Shown here in pieces: positions 1 to 39,093 of a DNA stretch of 39,093 nucleotides. This DNA comes from Escherichia phage T7: sequence record AY264775.1. One strand, 5' to 3'. Within the stretch, counting starts at the first letter, position 1, and each line of letters begins with the position of its first letter. The notes beneath the pieces were generated by a model. It was not told where the DNA came from, did not search any database, and worked only from the letters and a program-made list of their open reading frames with translations. The position numbers were made by a program, and so were the translations under genes.

Positions 1-136
1 TCCCCCCTAGGGGGTACCTAAAGCCCAGCCAATCATCTAAAGTCAACCTTCGGTTGACCTTGAGGGTTCCCTAAGGGTTGGGGATGACCCTTGGGTTTGT
101 CTTTGGGTGTTACTTTGAGTGTTTCTCTGTGTCCCT
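1..136. repeat. Left terminal direct repeat (partial; window starts about 24 nt inside the T7 TR)
   Basis: 1..136 matches 38958..39093 at the other end of the window apart from 3 mismatches; sequence is the T7 TR. Confidence 0.9.
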
Positions 137-145
137 ATCTGTTAC

Positions 146-320
146 AGTCTCCTAAAGTATCCTCCTAAAGTCACCTCTTAACGTCCATCCTAAAGCCAAC
201 ACCTAAAGCCAACACCTAAAGACCCATCAAGTCAACGCCTATCTTAAAGTTTAAACATAAAGACCAGACCTAAAGACCAAACCTAAAGACACTACATAAA
301 GACCAGACCTAAAGACGCCT
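146..320. repeat. Left-end array of imperfect CCTAAAG-type short repeats (T7 concatemer-processing/packaging region)
   Basis: Repeated cctaaag / acctaaag / cataaag units read directly in sequence. Confidence 0.8.
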
Positions 321-363
321 TGTTGTTAACCATAAAGGGATAACCTTTAATCATTGTCTTTAT

Positions 364-1471: not shown

Positions 1472-1615
1472 ATGTATATGCTTACTATCGGTCTACTCAC
1501 CGTTTTAGATCTAGCTGTAGGTGCATCCTTTGGGAAGGCTTTAGGTGTAGCTGTAGGTTCCTACTTTACCGCTTGCATCATCATAGAAATCATCAAAGGG
1601 GCACTACGCAAATGA
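1472..1615 (+). CDS. 0.5: gp0.5, small hydrophobic early protein
   Basis: 47-aa [15 protein letters not shown]... preceded by gaggaag SD; the longer track ORF 1406..1615 begins inside the RNase III site. Confidence 0.75.
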
Positions 1616-2256
1616 TGAAGCACTACGTTATGCCAATCCACACGTCCAACGGGACAACCGTATGTACACCTGATGGGTTCGCAATGAAACAACGAATCGA
1701 ACGCCTTAAGCGTGAACTCCGCATTAACCGCAAGTTCTTTGAGGGCATCGCCTCATTCGACATGCATAGCGGGAACATCATGTTCTCAAATGGAGACGTA
1801 CCATACATCACCAACCCGGTATCATTCTCGCAGAAGAAAGATGGTGGCGCATTCAGCATCGACCCTGAGGAACTCATCAAGGAAGTCGAGGAAGTCGCAC
1901 GACAGAAAGAAATTGACCGCGCTAAGGCCCGTAAAGAACGTCACGAGGGGCGCTTAGAGGCACGCAGATTCAAACGTCGCAACCGCAAGGCACGTAAAGC
2001 ACACAAAGCTAAGCGCGAAAGAATGCTTGCTGCGTGGCGATGGGCTGAACGTCAAGAACGGCGTAACCATGAGGTAGCTGTAGATGTACTAAGAAGAACC
2101 AATAACGCTATGCTCTGGGTCAACATGTTCTCTGGGGACTTTAAGGCGCTTGAGAAACGAATCGCGCTGCACTGGCGTAATGCTGACCGGATGGCTATCG
2201 CTAATGGTCTTACGCTCAACATTGATAAGCAACTTGACGTAATGTTAATGGACTGA
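1612..2256 (+). CDS. 0.6/0.7: In-frame fusion: N-terminal ~41 aa of gp0.6 joined to the C-terminal ~173 aa of gp0.7 (host-transcription shutoff part; protein kinase domain deleted)
   Basis: ORF starts [14 protein letters not shown] (gp0.6) and continues ...RINRK|[17 protein letters not shown]... (gp0.7 C-terminal region); length accounting against T7 indicates ~820 bp missing here. Confidence 0.8.
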
Positions 2257-2261
2257 TAGTC

Positions 2262-2312
2262 TTATCTTACAGGTCATTTGCGGGTGGCCTGAATAGGTAC
2301 GATTTACTAACT
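2262..2312 (+). promoter_or_regulatory. RNase III site R1 (approximate)
   Basis: Hairpin-forming leader upstream of gene 1 at the T7 R1 position. Confidence 0.45.
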
Positions 2313-2326
2313 GAAAGAGGCACTAA

Positions 2327-4978
2327 ATGAACACGATTAACATTGCTAAGAACGACTTCTCTGACATCGAACTGGCTGCTATCCCGTTCAACACTCTGGC
2401 TGACCATTACGGTGAGCGTTTAGCTCGCGAACAGTTGGCTCTTGAACATGAGTCTTACGAGATGGGTGAAGCACGCTTCCGCAAGATGTTTGAGCGTCAA
2501 CTTAAAGCTGGTGAGGTTGCGGATAACGCTGCCGCCAAGCCTCTCATCACTACCCTACTCCCTAAGATGATTGCACGCATCAACGACTGGTTTGAGGAAG
2601 TGAAAGCTAAGCGCGGCAAGCGTCCGACAGCCTTCCAGTTTCTGCAAGAAATCAAGCCGGAAGCCGTAGCGTACATCACCATTAAAACCACTCTGGCTTG
2701 CCTAACCAGTGCTGACAATATAACCGTTCAGGCTGTAGCAAGCGCAATCGGTCGGGCCATTGAGGACGAGGCTCGCTTCGGTCGTATCCGTGACCTTGAA
2801 GCTAAGCACTTCAAGAAAAACGTTGAGGAACAACTCAACAAGCGCGTAGGGCACGTCTACAAGAAAGCATTTATGCAAGTTGTCGAGGCTGACATGCTCT
2901 CTAAGGGTCTACTCGGTGGCGAGGCGTGGTCTTCGTGGCATAAGGAAGACTCTATTCATGTAGGAGTACGCTGCATCGAGATGCTCATTGAGTCAACCGG
3001 AATGGTTAGCTTACACCGCCAAAATGCTGGCGTAGTAGGTCAAGACTCTGAGACTATCGAACTCGCACCTGAATACGCTGAGGCTATCGCAACCCGTGCA
3101 GGTGCGCTGGCTGGCATTTCTCCAATGTTCCAACCTTGCGTAATTCCTTCTAAGCCGTGGACTGGCATTACTGGTGGTGGCTATTGGGCTAACGGTCGTC
3201 GTCCTCTGGCGCTGGTGCGTACTCACAGTAAGAAAGCACTGATGCGCTACGAAAACGTTTACATGCCTGAGGTGTACAAAGCGATTAACATTGCGCAAAA
3301 CACCGCATGGAAAATCAACAAGAAAGTCCTAGCGGTCGCCAACGTAATTACCAAGTGGAAGCATTGTCCGGTCGAGGACATCCCTGCGATTGAGCGTGAA
3401 GAACTCCCGATGAAACCGAAAGACATCGACATGAATCCTGAGGCTCTCACCGCGTGGAAACGTGCTGCCGCTGCTGTGTACCGCAAGGACAAGGCTCGCA
3501 AATCTCGCCGTATCAACCTTGAGTTCATGCTTGAGCAAGCCAATAAGTTTGCTAACCATAAGGCCATCTGGTTCCCTTACAACATGGACTGGCGCGGTCG
3601 TGTTTACGCTGTGTCAATGTTCAACCCGCAAGGTAACGATATGACCAAAGGACTGCTTACGCTGGCGAAAGGTAAACCAATCGGTAAGGAAGGTTACTAC
3701 TGGCTGAAAATCCACGGTGCAAACTGTGCGGGTGTCGATAAGGTTCCGTTCCCTGAGCGCATCAAGTTCATTGAGGAAAACCACGAGAACATCATGGCTT
3801 GTGCTAAGTCTCCACTGGAGAACACTTGGTGGGCTGAGCAAAATTCTCCGTTCTGCTTCCTTGCGTTCTGCTTTGAGTACGCTGGAGTACAGCACCACGG
3901 CCTGAGCTATAACTGCTCCCTTCCGCTGGCGTTTGACGGGTCTTGCTCTGGCATCCAGCACTTCTCCGCGATGCTCCGAGATGAGGTAGGTGGTCGCGCG
4001 GTTAACTTGCTTCCTAGTGAAACCGTTCAGGACATCTACGGGATTGTTGCTAAAAAAGTCAACGAGATTCTACAAGCAGACGCAATCAATGGGACTGATA
4101 ACGAAGTAGTTACCGTGACCGATGAGAACACTGGTGAAATCTCTGAGAAAATCAAACTGGGCACTAAGGCACTGGCTGGTCAATGGCTGGCTTACGGTGT
4201 TACTCGCAGTGTGACTAAGCGTTCAGTCATGACGCTGGCTTACGGGTCCAAAGAGTTCGGCTTCCGTCAACAAGTGCTAGAAGATACCATTCAGCCAGCT
4301 ATTGATTCCGGCAAGGGTCTGATGTTCACTCAGCCGAATCAGGCTGCTGGATACATGGCTAAGCTGATTTGGGAATCTGTGAGCGTGACGGTGGTAGCTG
4401 CGGTTGAAGCAATGAACTGGCTTAAGTCTGCTGCTAAGCTGCTGGCTGCTGAGGTCAAAGATAAGAAGACTGGAGAGATTCTTCGCAAGCGTTGCGCTGT
4501 GCATTGGGTAACTCCTGATGGTTTCCCTGTGTGGCAGGAATACAAGAAGCCTATTCAGACGCGCTTGAACCTGATGTTCCTCGGTCAGTTCCGCTTACAG
4601 CCTACCATTAATACCAACAAAGATAGCGAGATTGATGCACACAAACAGGAGTCTGGTATCGCTCCTAACTTTGTACACAGTCAAGACGGTAGCCATCTTC
4701 GTAAGACTGTAGTGTGGGCACACGAGAAGTACGGAATCGAATCTTTTGCACTGATTCACGACTCCTTCGGTACCATTCCGGCTGACGCTGCGAACCTGTT
4801 CAAAGCAGTGCGCGAAACTATGGTTGACACATATGAGTCTTGTGATGTACTGGCTGATTTCTACGACCAGTTCGCTGACCAGTTGCACGAGTCTCAATTG
4901 GACAAAATGCCAGCACTTCCGGCTAAAGGTAACTTGAACCTCCGTGACATCTTAGAGTCGGACTTCGCGTTCGCGTAA
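2327..4978 (+). CDS. 1: T7 RNA polymerase (gp1)
   Basis: 883-aa ORF, essentially identical to canonical T7 RNAP apart from a handful of substitutions. Confidence 0.99.
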   Translation: MNTINIAKNDFSDIELAAIPFNTLADHYGERLAREQLALEHESYEMGEARFRKMFERQLKAGEVADNAAAKPLITTLLPKMIARINDWFEEVKAKRGKRPTAFQFLQEIKPEAVAYITIKTTLACLTSADNITVQAVASAIGRAIEDEARFGRIRDLEAKHFKKNVEEQLNKRVGHVYKKAFMQVVEADMLSKGLLGGEAWSSWHKEDSIHVGVRCIEMLIESTGMVSLHRQNAGVVGQDSETIELAPEYAEAIATRAGALAGISPMFQPCVIPSKPWTGITGGGYWANGRRPLALVRTHSKKALMRYENVYMPEVYKAINIAQNTAWKINKKVLAVANVITKWKHCPVEDIPAIEREELPMKPKDIDMNPEALTAWKRAAAAVYRKDKARKSRRINLEFMLEQANKFANHKAIWFPYNMDWRGRVYAVSMFNPQGNDMTKGLLTLAKGKPIGKEGYYWLKIHGANCAGVDKVPFPERIKFIEENHENIMACAKSPLENTWWAEQNSPFCFLAFCFEYAGVQHHGLSYNCSLPLAFDGSCSGIQHFSAMLRDEVGGRAVNLLPSETVQDIYGIVAKKVNEILQADAINGTDNEVVTVTDENTGEISEKIKLGTKALAGQWLAYGVTRSVTKRSVMTLAYGSKEFGFRQQVLEDTIQPAIDSGKGLMFTQPNQAAGYMAKLIWESVSVTVVAAVEAMNWLKSAAKLLAAEVKDKKTGEILRKRCAVHWVTPDGFPVWQEYKKPIQTRLNLMFLGQFRLQPTINTNKDSEIDAHKQESGIAPNFVHSQDGSHLRKTVVWAHEKYGIESFALIHDSFGTIPADAANLFKAVRETMVDTYESCDVLADFYDQFADQLHESQLDKMPALPAKGNLNLRDILESDFAFA

Positions 4979-6946: not shown

Positions 6947-7039
6947 ATGATGTACTTAATGCCATTACTCATCGTCATTGTAGGATGCCTTGCGCTCTAC
7001 TGTAGCGATGATGATGATATGCCAAATGGTCACGCTTAA
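6947..7039 (+). CDS. 1.5: gp1.5 (30 codons here; contains a GAT x4 run)
   Basis: ORF MMYLMPLLIVIVGCLALYCSDDDDMPNGHA. Confidence 0.7.
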   Translation: MMYLMPLLIVIVGCLALYCSDDDDMPNGHA

Positions 7040-13082: not shown

Positions 13083-13490
13083 ATGCGTGACCCTAAAGTT
13101 ATCCAAGCAGAAATCGCTAAACTGGAAGTTGAACTGGAGGACGTTAAGTACCATGAAGCTAAGACTCGCTCCGCTGTTCACATCTTGAAAAACTTAGGCT
13201 GGACTTGGACAAGACAGACTGGCTGAAAGAAACCAGAAGTTACCAAGTTGAGTCATAAGGTGTTCGATAAGGACACTATGACCCACATCAAGGCTGGTGA
13301 TTGGGTTAAGGTTGACATGGGAATTGTTGGTGGATACGACTACGTCCGCTCAGTTAGTGACAAATATGCACAAATGTCATACATCACAGATGTTACTCCA
13401 CGCGGTGCAATCGTTACCGATAAGACCAACATGATTCACACAGATTTCTTGACAGTTGTTTCATATGAAGAGATTGTTAAGTCACGATAA
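13083..13490 (+). pseudogene. 4.7: gp4.7 reading frame interrupted by an in-frame TGA at 13224-13226 (codon 48 of 135)
   Basis: ATG at 13083 after phi4.7 and an SD; same frame continues to the stop at 13488-13490; the track splits it into ORFs 12954..13226 and 13248..13490 in one frame. Confidence 0.8.
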
Positions 13491-16006: not shown

Positions 16007-16306
16007 ATGGCTATGACAAAGAAATTTAAAGTGTCCTTCGACGTTACCGCAAAGATGTCGTCTAACGTTCAGACAATCTTAGAGAAAGATATGCTGCATC
16101 TATGTAAGCAGGTCGGCTCAAGTGCGATTGTCCCCAATGGTAAACAGAAGGAAATGATTGTCCAGTTTCTGACACACGGTATGGAAGGATTGATGACATT
16201 CGTAGTACGTACATCATTTCGTGAGGCCATTAAGGACATGCACGAAGAGTATGCAGATAAGGACTCTTTCAAACAATCTCCTGCAACAGTACGGGAGGTG
16301 TTCTGA
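16007..16306 (+). CDS. 5.5: gp5.5, H-NS-binding protein
   Basis: 99-aa ORF MAMTKKFKVSFDVTAKMSSNVQTILEKDMLHL... Confidence 0.9.
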   Translation: MAMTKKFKVSFDVTAKMSSNVQTILEKDMLHLCKQVGSSAIVPNGKQKEMIVQFLTHGMEGLMTFVVRTSFREAIKDMHEEYADKDSFKQSPATVREVF

Positions 16307-16515
16307 TGTCTGACTATCTGAAAGTGCTGCAAGCAATCAAAAGTTGCCCTAAGACTTTCCAGTCCAACTATGTACGGAACAATGCGAGCCTCGTAGCGGA
16401 GGCCGCTTCCCGTGGTCACATCTCGTGCCTGACTACTAATGGACGTAACGGTGGCGCTTGAGAAATCACTGCTTCCGATATTCGCTTTCTGAAACGAATG
16501 AGAGGATGTGTCTAA
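16306..16515 (+). pseudogene. 5.7: gp5.7 (inhibitor of sigma-S RNA polymerase) interrupted by an in-frame TGA at 16459-16461 (codon 52 of 69)
   Basis: MSDYLKVLQAIKSCPKTFQSNYVRNNASLVAEAASRGHISCLTTNGRNGGA*EITASDIRFLKRMRGCV*. Confidence 0.8.
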
Positions 16516-16673
16516 TGTCTCGTGACCTTGTGACTATTCTACGCGATGTGTGAAACGATATACAGGGCTACATCGACTCTCTGGAACGTGAGAACGATAG
16601 CCTTAAGAATCAACTAATGGAAGCTGACGAATACGTAGCGGAACTAGAGGAGAAACTTAATGGCACTTCTTGA
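16515..16673 (+). pseudogene. 5.9: gp5.9 (RecBCD inhibitor) interrupted by an in-frame TGA at 16551-16553 (codon 13 of 52)
   Basis: MSRDLVTILRDV*NDIQGYIDSLERENDSLKNQLMEADEYVAELEEKLNGTS*. Confidence 0.85.
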
Positions 16674-17562
16674 CCTTAAACAATTCTATGAGTTACGTGA
16701 AGGCTGCGACGACAAGAGTATCCTTGTGATGGACGGCGACTGGCTGGTCTTCCAAGCTATGAGTGCTGCTGAGTTTGATGCCTCTTGGGAGGAAGAGATT
16801 TGGCACCGATGCTGTGACCACGCTAAGGCCCGTCAGATTCTTGAGGATTCCATTAAGTCCTACGAGACCCGTAAGAAGGCTTGGGCAGGTGCTCCAATTG
16901 TCCTTGCGTTCACCGATAGTGTTAACTGGCGTAAAGAACTGGTTGACCCGAACTATAAGACTAACCGTAAGGCCGTGAAGAAACCTGTAGGGTACTTTGA
17001 GTTCCTTGATGCTCTCTTTGAGCGCGAAGAGTTCTATTGCATCCGTGAGCCTATGCTTGAGGGTGATGACGTTATGGGAGTTATTGCTTCCAATCCGTCT
17101 GCCTTCGGTGCTCGTAAGGCTGTAATCATCTCTTGCGATAAGGACTTTAAGACCATTCCTAACTGTGACTTCCTGTGGTGTACCACTGGTAACATCCTGA
17201 TTCAGACCGAAGAGTCCGCTGACTGGTGGCACCTTTTCCAGACCATCAAGGGTGACATCACTGATGGTTACTCAGGGATTGCTGGATGGGGTGATACCGC
17301 CGAGGACTTCTTGAATAACCCGTTCATAATCGAGCCTAAAACGTCTGTGCTTAAGTCCGGTAAGAACAAAGGCCAAGAGGTTACTAAATGGATTAAACGC
17401 GATCCTGAGCCTCATGAGACGCTTTGGGACTGCATTAAGTCCATTGGCGCGAAGGCTGGTATGACCGAAGAGGATATTATCAAGCAGGGCCAAATGGCTC
17501 GAATTCTACGGTTCAACGAGTACAACTTTATTGACAAGGAGATTTACCTGTGGAGACCGTAG
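16660..17562 (+). CDS. 6: 5'-3' exonuclease (gp6)
   Basis: 300-aa ORF. Confidence 0.97.
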   Translation: MALLDLKQFYELREGCDDKSILVMDGDWLVFQAMSAAEFDASWEEEIWHRCCDHAKARQILEDSIKSYETRKKAWAGAPIVLAFTDSVNWRKELVDPNYKTNRKAVKKPVGYFEFLDALFEREEFYCIREPMLEGDDVMGVIASNPSAFGARKAVIISCDKDFKTIPNCDFLWCTTGNILIQTEESADWWHLFQTIKGDITDGYSGIAGWGDTAEDFLNNPFIIEPKTSVLKSGKNKGQEVTKWIKRDPEPHETLWDCIKSIGAKAGMTEEDIIKQGQMARILRFNEYNFIDKEIYLWRP

Positions 17563-38699: not shown

Positions 38700-38933
38700 T
38701 CCTGACCGATTGATGGCTCACCGAGGGATTCAGCGGTATGATTGCATCACACCACTTCATCCCTATAGAGTCAAGTCCTAAGGTATACCCATAAAGAGTC
38801 TCTAATGGTCTATCCTAAGGTCTATACCTAAAGATAGGCCATCCTATCAGTGTCACCTAAAGAGGGTCTTAGAGAGGGCCTATGGAGTTCCTATAGGGTC
38901 CTTTAAAATATACCATAAAAATCTGAGTGACTA
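38700..38933. repeat. Right-end short-repeat region preceding the terminal repeat
   Basis: Repeated cctaaag / cataaag / cctatag-like units. Confidence 0.6.
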
Positions 38934-39093
38934 TCTCACAGTGTACGGACTTAAAGTTCCCCCATAGGGGGTACCTAAAGCCCAGCCAATCATCTAAAGT
39001 CAACCTTCGGTTGACCTTGAGGGTTCCCTAAGGGTTGGGGATGACCCTTGGGTTTGTCTTTGGGTGTTACTTTGAGTGTCTCTCTGTGTCCCA
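38934..39093. repeat. Right terminal direct repeat (full copy)
   Basis: Begins tctcacagtgtacgga...; 38958..39093 is the counterpart of window 1..136. Confidence 0.9.

What the first reader, a model, noticed from the sequence alone, without database searches (positions are those of the whole stretch)
1..136. Left and right terminal-repeat copies are not identical
Comparing 1..136 with 38958..39093 gives three mismatches: position 7 (c) versus 38964 (a); position 123 (t) versus 39080 (c); position 136 (t) versus 39093 (a). T7 terminal repeats are regenerated from a single copy at each concatemer junction during packaging, so they should be identical within one genome. Two of the three are not G:C->A:T changes and sit at the extreme ends, which suggests assembly or end-sequencing artefacts; the third fits the signature and may reflect population heterogeneity. 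Both copies share aatcaTctaaag, where T7 has aatcaCctaaag as I recall.
Basis: seen in the sequence. Interest (0 to 1): 0.4.

Follow-up and report, generated by a model that had tools for sequence, protein, structure and literature searches.

The report
T7 end-repeat mismatches are sequencing artefacts
The window is a heavily mutagenised laboratory phage T7 genome, and the three differences between its two terminal-repeat copies most likely come from how the ends were sequenced in 2003, so the finding is ordinary.

Summary
Window 1..136 and 38958..39093 match at 133 of 136 positions, and the mismatches are exactly those reported.

The window is a complete GenBank record of phage T7, almost certainly AY264775. 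It is from a nitrosoguanidine mutation-accumulation line, with 415 substitutions, 94% of them G:C>A:T.

The repeat is the known 160-bp T7 terminal redundancy. The right copy is complete (38934..39093).

Three sibling records from the same submission settle most of the question:
- **Position 7 (A>C)** is absent from the direct descendant K115. It is the only A>C in the genome and follows a C5 run in a hairpin, so it is a likely base-call error.
- **The terminal A at 39093** recurs in an independent line (P), so it is a technical artefact.
- **Position 123 (C>T)** is a real mutation. The same pattern (left mutant, right wild-type) persists in K115. An analogous case occurs in P and P82 at repeat position 157.

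Both persistent asymmetries lie in the last 14 nt of the right end. All four repeat mutations further in are present in both copies. This argues against population heterogeneity. It favours a right terminus that was not read from the phage, probably wild-type PCR-primer sequence. Interest is low.

The parts
1..136 (+). Left copy of the T7 terminal repeat, truncated. It corresponds to T7 nt 25-160; the first 24 nt of the repeat are missing from the record.
   Evidence: Window 1 aligns to T7 nt 25. The sibling records start at T7 nt 25, 24 and 20.
38934..39093 (+). Right copy of the T7 terminal repeat, full length (160 nt). It differs from wild type at repeat positions 18, 60, 138 and 160.
   Evidence: Aligned to AY264774 nt 1-160 and 39779-39938.
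38934..38957 (+). The 24 nt of the repeat (T7 nt 1-24) present only in the right copy. It carries C>T at 38951 (repeat position 18), which cannot be compared with the left copy.
7..7 (+). Mismatch 1: C here, A (wild type) at 38964. Probable base-call error. It is the only A>C in the genome, it is the first loop base after a C5 run, it lies 7 nt from the record start, and it is absent from the descendant K115.
2..14 (+). CCCCC-NTA-GGGGG hairpin inside the repeat (5 G:C pairs, about -4.7 kcal/mol as DNA). The same element lies at 38959..38971 in the right copy.
36..36 (+). C>T at repeat position 60, present in both copies (also 38993). A genuine mutation that has been homogenised between the copies.
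114..114 (+). C>T at repeat position 138, present in both copies (also 39071). A genuine mutation that has been homogenised between the copies.
123..123 (+). Mismatch 2: T here (C>T at repeat position 147), C (wild type) at 39080. A real, inherited mutation in the left copy, also present in the left copy of K115.
39072..39092 (+). Repeat positions 139-159 of the right copy, wild type in all four sibling records. Inferred not to have been read from the phage template, probably wild-type PCR-primer sequence. This would hide the mutation at position 147 (39080).
   Evidence: Inference: left-mutant/right-wild-type asymmetries occur only at positions 147 and 157, while position 138 is mutant in both copies.
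39093..39093 (+). Mismatch 3: terminal A where T7 and the left copy (136) have T. A technical end artefact, probably a non-templated A added after a template that ended at repeat position 159.
   Evidence: The same terminal A is present in the independent isolate P. P82 stops at position 159 and K115 at 155.
137..143 (+). ATCTGTT, the class II T7 RNA polymerase pause/termination signal of the concatemer junction, immediately to the right of the left repeat. It is intact.
   Evidence: Position. [quoted passage not shown]

Best explanation
The window is the complete GenBank record of a mutagenised laboratory T7 isolate, and its ends are the well-known 160-bp T7 terminal redundancy. The three left/right differences belong to the Sanger-era record, not to the phage.

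1. Position 7 (A>C) is a base-call error in poor sequence at the very start of the record. It sits in the loop of a G:C hairpin, right after a C5 run.

2. Position 123 (C>T, repeat position 147) is a genuine G:C>A:T mutation, and the phage most likely carries it in both repeat copies. The right copy reads wild type because the last stretch of the right end was not read from phage template. That stretch is at least 14 nt (it includes position 147) and at most 22 nt (position 138 is mutant in both copies). It was most probably contributed by a wild-type PCR primer whose 5' end lies at repeat position 159. Filling in from the reference is a less likely alternative.

3. The final A (39093) is the non-templated A that Taq-type polymerases add after that template end.

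The missing first 24 nt of the left copy have the same technical origin (primer site or unread end).

Shown: the coordinates, the identity with T7, the mutation spectrum, inheritance or non-inheritance in K115, and recurrence in P and P82. Inferred: the primer or run-off mechanism.
For: The window is T7. It is colinear with AY264774 and NC_001604, with 415 substitutions, of which 390 are G:C>A:T. Its gp1 and gp17 are AAP33969.1 and AAP34009.1 on a 39093-nt contig. Those accessions fall between the protein ranges of AY264774 and AY264776. The lab's wild type AY264774 is attributed to Bull et al. 2003, and the lab sequences with ABI BigDye from PCR products or viral DNA (PMC2680503).

K115 shares 386 of the 415 substitutions and is therefore a descendant. 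P and P82 form an independent line, sharing only 23-24 substitutions with the window.

Terminal-repeat table:
- The left copy of K115 lacks the A>C at repeat position 31.
- K115 repeats the state left T / right C at position 147.
- P and P82 both have left T / right C at position 157.
- The right copy of P also ends in A, P82 stops at 159, and K115 stops at 155.
- All four records lack the first 19-24 nt of the left copy.

All four repeat mutations lying between positions 25 and 138 (K line: 60 and 138; P line: 34 and 82) are present in both copies. Homogenisation therefore works in these lines. The only exceptions are the two sites in the last 14 nt. The chance of that placement and orientation is about 0.003.

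A toy model of single-copy junctions shows left and right frequencies equalising after one generation, with asymmetric genomes halving each generation.

A>C occurs only once among the 415 changes. Three of the eight window substitutions that K115 covers but does not carry lie in window 1-340, which points to a weak left-end read.

Two other evolved T7 records with altered repeats carry every change in both copies.
Against: I could not read the Methods of the source paper, so the PCR-primer explanation is inferred and not documented.

The treatment of the two ends is inconsistent. If primer sequence was excluded at the left, it is unclear why it was kept at the right. That requires an extra assumption, for example that only forward reads were used.

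If the right end was read by run-off directly on virion DNA, the wild-type C at 39080 would be a real observation and the asymmetry would need another explanation.

The numbers are small: two asymmetric sites against four symmetric ones (Fisher p = 0.067). K115 could in principle have reverted the change at position 7.
Confidence: 0.75

Rival explanations
1. Population heterogeneity, the first reader's idea for position 123. The stock was polymorphic at repeat position 147, or the founding virion had different left and right alleles. The base-caller then happened to pick T at the left end and C at the right.
For: The change is C>T, the mutagen's signature. The line was mutagenised, so new mutations in a single repeat copy must arise. 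Genomes with unlike copies are a legitimate transient product of the concatemer model: 25% per orientation after one generation.
Against: The same asymmetric call is found in the independently sequenced descendant K115. An analogous asymmetry occurs in P and P82 at another site, always with the left copy mutant and the right wild type, and always within 14 nt of the right terminus. Left and right allele frequencies equalise in one generation and asymmetric genomes decay twofold per generation. K115 differs from the window by about 37 substitutions outside its extra deletions, plus those two large deletions, so many generations separate them.
Confidence: 0.08
2. The asymmetry is real and stable. 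In these phages the last 14 nt or more of the mature right end are not copied from the same junction template as the inner end of the left repeat.
For: The pattern is persistent and orientation-consistent in two independent lines and their descendants.
Against: No step of the accepted T7 maturation scheme provides a separate template. That scheme has one repeat per concatemer junction, duplicated at packaging (established knowledge; context in PMC3276506). Repeat mutations at positions 34, 60, 82 and 138 are homogenised normally. The terminal base itself is plainly artefactual in the same reads, since the same A appears in K and P.
Confidence: 0.03
3. The left copy is the wrong one: T at 123 is a systematic Sanger miscall, and the right copy (C) is correct.
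For: The left end of the window record has several calls not confirmed in K115.
Against: T at repeat position 147 is reproduced in the left copy of K115 but not in P or P82. Conversely, T at position 157 is seen in P and P82 but not in K or K115. A context-driven miscall would appear in all four records. The calls are lineage-specific and inherited, as real mutations are.
Confidence: 0.04
4. The physical left end of these phages really starts at T7 nt 20-25, so the repeat has genuinely shortened to about 136 nt.
For: All four evolved records start at nt 20-25.
Against: The start differs between the parent P (nt 24) and its descendant P82 (nt 20), and the same truncation appears in two independent lines. 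That is the behaviour of read trimming, not of a terminase cut site. The right copies keep nt 1-24 intact apart from one transition.
Confidence: 0.03

Closest known systems
Phage T7 160-bp terminal redundancy (direct terminal repeat), as in NC_001604 / V01146 / AY264774
   Same: It has the same sequence, position and orientation. The right copy is 156/160 identical to wild type and the left copy 132/136. ATCTGTT, the concatemer-junction pause signal of wild-type T7, abuts the left copy unchanged.
   Different: In this record the left copy lacks nt 1-24 and the copies differ at 3 positions. The reference records have two exact 160-nt copies.
Sibling records AY264776 (isolate K115), AY264777 (isolate P), AY264778 (isolate P82)
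   Same: They come from the same submission and show the same end treatment. The left copy starts at T7 nt 20-25. The right copy ends at repeat position 155-160, with a terminal A in P. Left-mutant/right-wild-type asymmetry is confined to the last 14 nt.
   Different: K115 lacks the position-7 change and has two further deletions. The P line carries different repeat mutations (positions 34, 82, 157).
Later evolved T7 records with altered repeats (MZ375285 clone T7_270L, OL964748 clone T7_1t1)
   Same: They are laboratory-evolved T7 genomes with mutations inside the terminal repeat.
   Different: Every repeat change (hairpin indels, an 8-bp deletion) is present in both copies and both copies are full length. 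This identity may be partly imposed by the assembly method.

Membership tests
T7-type short direct terminal repeat (terminal redundancy) | The same sequence in direct orientation at both ends of the linear genome | tested here: met
   1..136 against 38958..39093 is 133/136 identical, and it is the only long direct repeat in the window.
T7-type short direct terminal repeat (terminal redundancy) | Homology and colinearity with the 160-bp repeat of T7 | tested here: met
   The right copy 38934..39093 aligns to T7 nt 1-160, and the left copy to nt 25-160.
T7-type short direct terminal repeat (terminal redundancy) | The two copies are identical in sequence and length | tested here: not met
   There are 3 mismatches and a 24-nt shortfall at the left. 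Comparison with the sibling records attributes this to the record and not to the phage, but that attribution is an inference.
T7-type short direct terminal repeat (terminal redundancy) | The record ends coincide with the physical ends of the virion DNA | not testable with these tools
   No reads or chromatograms are available. By comparison with T7, the left record end falls 24 nt short of the T7 terminus.
T7-type short direct terminal repeat (terminal redundancy) | A concatemer-junction processing signal (class II pause ATCTGTT) immediately to the right of the repeat | tested here: met
   ATCTGTT lies at window 137..143. The signal is described in 10.1101/2021.01.11.426313.
Mutagen-derived T7 mutation-accumulation line (Bull et al. 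2003 submission AY264774-AY264778) | A T7 backbone with hundreds of substitutions dominated by G:C>A:T | tested here: met
   415 substitutions, 390 of them G:C>A:T, split evenly by strand (199 G>A, 191 C>T). This spectrum is described for nitrosoguanidine-treated T7 in PMC6042481.
Mutagen-derived T7 mutation-accumulation line (Bull et al. 2003 submission AY264774-AY264778) | Protein accessions and genealogy that place it in that submission | tested here: met
   AAP33969.1 and AAP34009.1 are on a 39093-nt contig. They lie between AAP33965 (AY264774) and AAP34018 (AY264776). 386 of 415 substitutions are shared with K115. The accession AY264775 itself is inferred: it is absent from the collection.

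The most novel reading that the evidence does not exclude
The left-mutant/right-wild-type asymmetry at the extreme right terminus is real and heritable. It is seen at repeat position 147 in K and K115 and at position 157 in P and P82. If real, the last 14 nt or so of the mature T7 right end would be generated from a template other than the concatemer-junction repeat copy that gives rise to the neighbouring genome's left end. That would contradict the accepted repeat-duplication scheme.
Probability: 0.03. Interest if true: 0.6.

Novelty: not a real feature. Interest (0 to 1): 0.08.

Why it matters
It matters mainly as a data-quality note. The ends of AY264775 and its sibling records should not be used as evidence about T7 terminal-repeat evolution, repeat length or terminase cut sites. 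The left 24 nt are missing, the first few bases are unreliable, and the last 14-22 nt of the right end probably do not report the phage's own sequence.

There is one useful positive result. The four repeat mutations that can be judged (positions 34, 60, 82 and 138, in two independent lines) are all present in both copies. This is a small but clean illustration of concerted evolution of the T7 terminal redundancy through single-copy concatemer junctions.

Tried and rejected
1. I first guessed that the genome came from Springman et al. 2010 (Genetics). I rejected this because the protein accessions place it in the 2003 AY2647xx submission.

2. I considered GU071091 as a possible ancestor. I rejected it because it is an unrelated record with EPTG_ locus tags and a single repeat copy.

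3. I looked for any record sharing the 811-bp deletion junction and found none.

4. I tried to read the source papers for the sequencing strategy: PMC2815918, DOI 10.1534/genetics.109.108803, PMC317279 and PMID 14629033. None is held. Only a later paper from the same lab gives its general method.

5. I searched the paper library for the putative end-primer sequences and found nothing from this lab.

6. I folded the hairpin with A and with C in the loop. The stability is the same (-4.7 kcal/mol), so the position-7 change has no structural rationale.

7. I considered a systematic miscall in the left copy. I rejected it because the calls are lineage-specific.

Full report
**Observation**

Window 1..136 and 38958..39093 agree at 133 of 136 positions. 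The mismatches are 7(C)/38964(A), 123(T)/39080(C) and 136(T)/39093(A). No other register aligns the ends (next best 43%). The repeat finder reports this as the only long direct repeat in the window. This is far beyond chance.

**What the sequence is**

The window is phage T7. Its first 3 kb match more than 100 T7 records at about 98.5% identity, and window base 1 aligns to T7 nt 25, not nt 1.

Against the wild type AY264774 (39,938 bp, exact 160-bp repeats) the window is colinear with the following differences:
- an 811-bp deletion between two CCGCAAG repeats in genes 0.6/0.7;
- a 3-nt insertion and a 3-nt deletion;
- 415 substitutions, of which 390 (94%) are G:C>A:T, with 199 G>A and 191 C>T.

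This is the spectrum reported for nitrosoguanidine-treated T7 (PMC6042481).

An exact-sequence look-up identifies the window's gp1 and gp17 as AAP33969.1 and AAP34009.1 on a 39,093-nt contig. These accessions lie between the last protein of AY264774 (AAP33965) and the first of AY264776 (AAP34018). The window is therefore the whole of AY264775 by inference; that accession is absent from the searchable collection. AY264774 is attributed to Bull et al. 2003. [quoted passage not shown] Bull 2015 cites the 2003 work among studies that fix random mutations through serial extreme bottlenecks (PMC4811365).

**Anatomy of the ends**

The repeat is the canonical 160-bp T7 terminal redundancy. The right copy is complete (38934..39093). 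The left copy (1..136) lacks repeat positions 1-24.

Relative to wild type:
- both copies carry C>T at repeat positions 60 (36/38993) and 138 (114/39071);
- the right copy carries C>T at position 18 (38951), which the left copy does not cover;
- the left copy alone has A>C at position 31 (window 7) and C>T at position 147 (window 123);
- the right copy alone ends in A instead of T.

A five-G:C-pair hairpin (CCCCC-NTA-GGGGG, about -4.7 kcal/mol) lies at 2..14 and 38959..38971, and window 7 is its first loop base. ATCTGTT lies immediately right of the left copy at 137..143 and is intact. This is the class II T7 RNA polymerase pause signal of the concatemer junction.

**The decisive comparison: sibling records**

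Three records from the same submission are available:
- AY264776 (isolate K115) shares 386 of the window's 415 substitutions, so it is a descendant.
- AY264777 (isolate P) and AY264778 (isolate P82) share 300 substitutions with each other but only 22-24 with the K line, so they form an independent line.

Lining up all eight repeat copies gives five results:
1. All four records lack the beginning of the left copy. They start at T7 nt 25, 25, 24 and 20. This is a systematic property of the submission, and the start even differs between P and its descendant P82.
2. The A>C at window 7 is absent from the left copy of K115. It is the only A>C among 415 changes and follows a C5 run. Three of the eight window substitutions that K115 covers but does not carry lie in window 1-340. 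That points to a poor read at the left end.
3. The terminal A recurs in the right copy of isolate P, an independent line. P82 stops at position 159 and K115 at 155. An identical T>A transversion at the last base in two lines is not credible as mutation. A template ending at position 159 followed by a non-templated A explains all four endings.
4. The asymmetry at position 147 (left T, right C) is reproduced in K115. P and P82 show an analogous asymmetry at position 157 (left T, right C).
5. Every repeat mutation lying between positions 25 and 138 is present in both copies (positions 60 and 138 in K; 34 and 82 in P).

**Mechanistic reasoning**

In the accepted T7 scheme, adjacent genomes in a concatemer share one repeat copy. 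That copy is duplicated at packaging, so one junction supplies the right repeat of one genome and the left repeat of the next. [quoted passage not shown]

The two repeats of one virion come from two different junctions. The population consequence is nevertheless strong. After one growth cycle, the allele frequency at left ends equals that at right ends.

A toy simulation started from 100% left-mutant/right-wild-type genomes gives 0.50/0.50 after one generation. Asymmetric genomes of that orientation fall to 25%, 13%, 6% and so on, reaching 0.06% by generation 10. Persistent, orientation-consistent asymmetry from K to K115 and from P to P82 therefore cannot be a transient polymorphism and has no mechanism in T7 biology.

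Homogenisation does operate in these very lines, since 4 of 4 internal repeat mutations are symmetric. Both exceptions fall within the last 14 nt of the right end and both have the mutant base at the left. By chance that has a probability of about 0.003. Fisher's test on the 4/0 against 0/2 split gives only p = 0.067 because the counts are small.

The simplest reading is that the last stretch of the right end was not read from phage template. The stretch is at least 14 nt and at most 22 nt, because position 138 is mutant in both copies. Wild-type sequence from a terminal PCR primer ending at position 159, followed by the polymerase's extra A, accounts for four things:
- the wild-type C at 39080;
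- the wild-type C at position 157 in P and P82;
- the terminal A in K and P;
- the stop at position 159 in P82.

A left primer over nt 1 to about 19-24, with reads starting just after it, would equally explain the missing left bases and the error seven bases in. This mechanism is an inference. I could not obtain the paper's Methods, and a search for the primer sequences found nothing from this lab.

**Rivals**

- *Population heterogeneity* is disfavoured for the reasons given above.
- *A systematic miscall in the left copy* is excluded. The T at position 147 is specific to the K line and the T at position 157 to the P line, and each is inherited.
- *A genuinely shortened repeat* is unlikely. 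The record start varies between a parent and its descendant, and the right copies retain nt 1-24.
- *A real, stable asymmetry* would overturn the repeat-duplication model. I give it about 3%.

**Comparison with other records**

The reference T7 records have two exact 160-nt copies. Two later evolved T7 genomes with altered repeats (MZ375285, OL964748) carry every change in both copies, although modern assembly practice may enforce that.

**Verdict**

The three mismatches are best explained as artefacts of how the ends of a 2003 Sanger record were obtained. One of them conceals a real C>T repeat mutation that the phage most likely carries at both ends. Interest is low.

Noticed in passing
window 1728-1734 (junction); T7 nt ~1759-2569 deleted: An 811-bp deletion removes the end of gene 0.6 and the first half of gene 0.7 (protein kinase). 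It arose between two 7-bp direct repeats (CCGCAAG). The independent P line has a different 0.7 deletion (T7 ~2181-2988), and K115 enlarges the K-line deletion to span T7 ~1505-3085. Loss of the early region is therefore recurrent.
   Followed up: partly
window 13083-13490 (gene 4.7), 16306-16515 (gene 5.7), 16515-16673 (gene 5.9): Premature stop codons are present in three non-essential genes (at aa 48, 52 and 13). The descendant K115 later deleted T7 ~16850-17486, which removes genes 5.5-5.9, and its record annotates gene 4.7 only as 'similar to'.
   Followed up: partly
window 7007-7009 and 7356: There is an in-frame 3-nt insertion (GAT) in gene 1.5 and an in-frame 3-nt deletion in gene 1.7. 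These are the only small indels besides the alignment ambiguity at the deletion junction.
   Followed up: no
window 1-340 (T7 nt 31, 304, 362): Three of the eight window substitutions that the descendant K115 covers but does not carry cluster in the first 340 nt, and two of them are transversions. This suggests the left-end read of this record is of lower quality than the rest. Reversion is the alternative.
   Followed up: partly
whole window vs L006 (AY264777): The independent K and P lines share 24 identical substitutions. Random overlap of G:C>A:T changes would give roughly 6 (my own estimate). Possible causes are mutagen hotspots, parallel selection, a shared early history, or differences between the real ancestor and AY264774.
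   Followed up: no
window 17-314 and 38827-38980: The heptamer CCTAAAG occurs 22 times against 4 expected. Twelve copies are packed into the ~300 nt at the left end and ~270 nt at the right end, all on the + strand. The shared C>T at repeat position 60 (window 36 and 38993) changes the base just upstream of the CTAAAG core in one degenerate (ACCTAAAG) copy of this repeat.
   Followed up: no
L010 (MZ375285 nt 1-220) and L012 (OL964748 nt 1-220): Other laboratory-evolved T7 clones have a mutated concatemer-junction pause motif (CTCTGTT and ACCTGTT instead of ATCTGTT). They also have indels in the CCCCC/GGGGG hairpin of the repeat, and one has an 8-bp deletion inside the repeat, in both copies.
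   Followed up: no
whole window: Across the T7 reading frames that map without a length change there are about 198 amino-acid changes and about 168 silent changes; overlapping frames are counted twice. G>A (199) and C>T (191) are almost equal, so the mutagen shows no strand bias.
   Followed up: no
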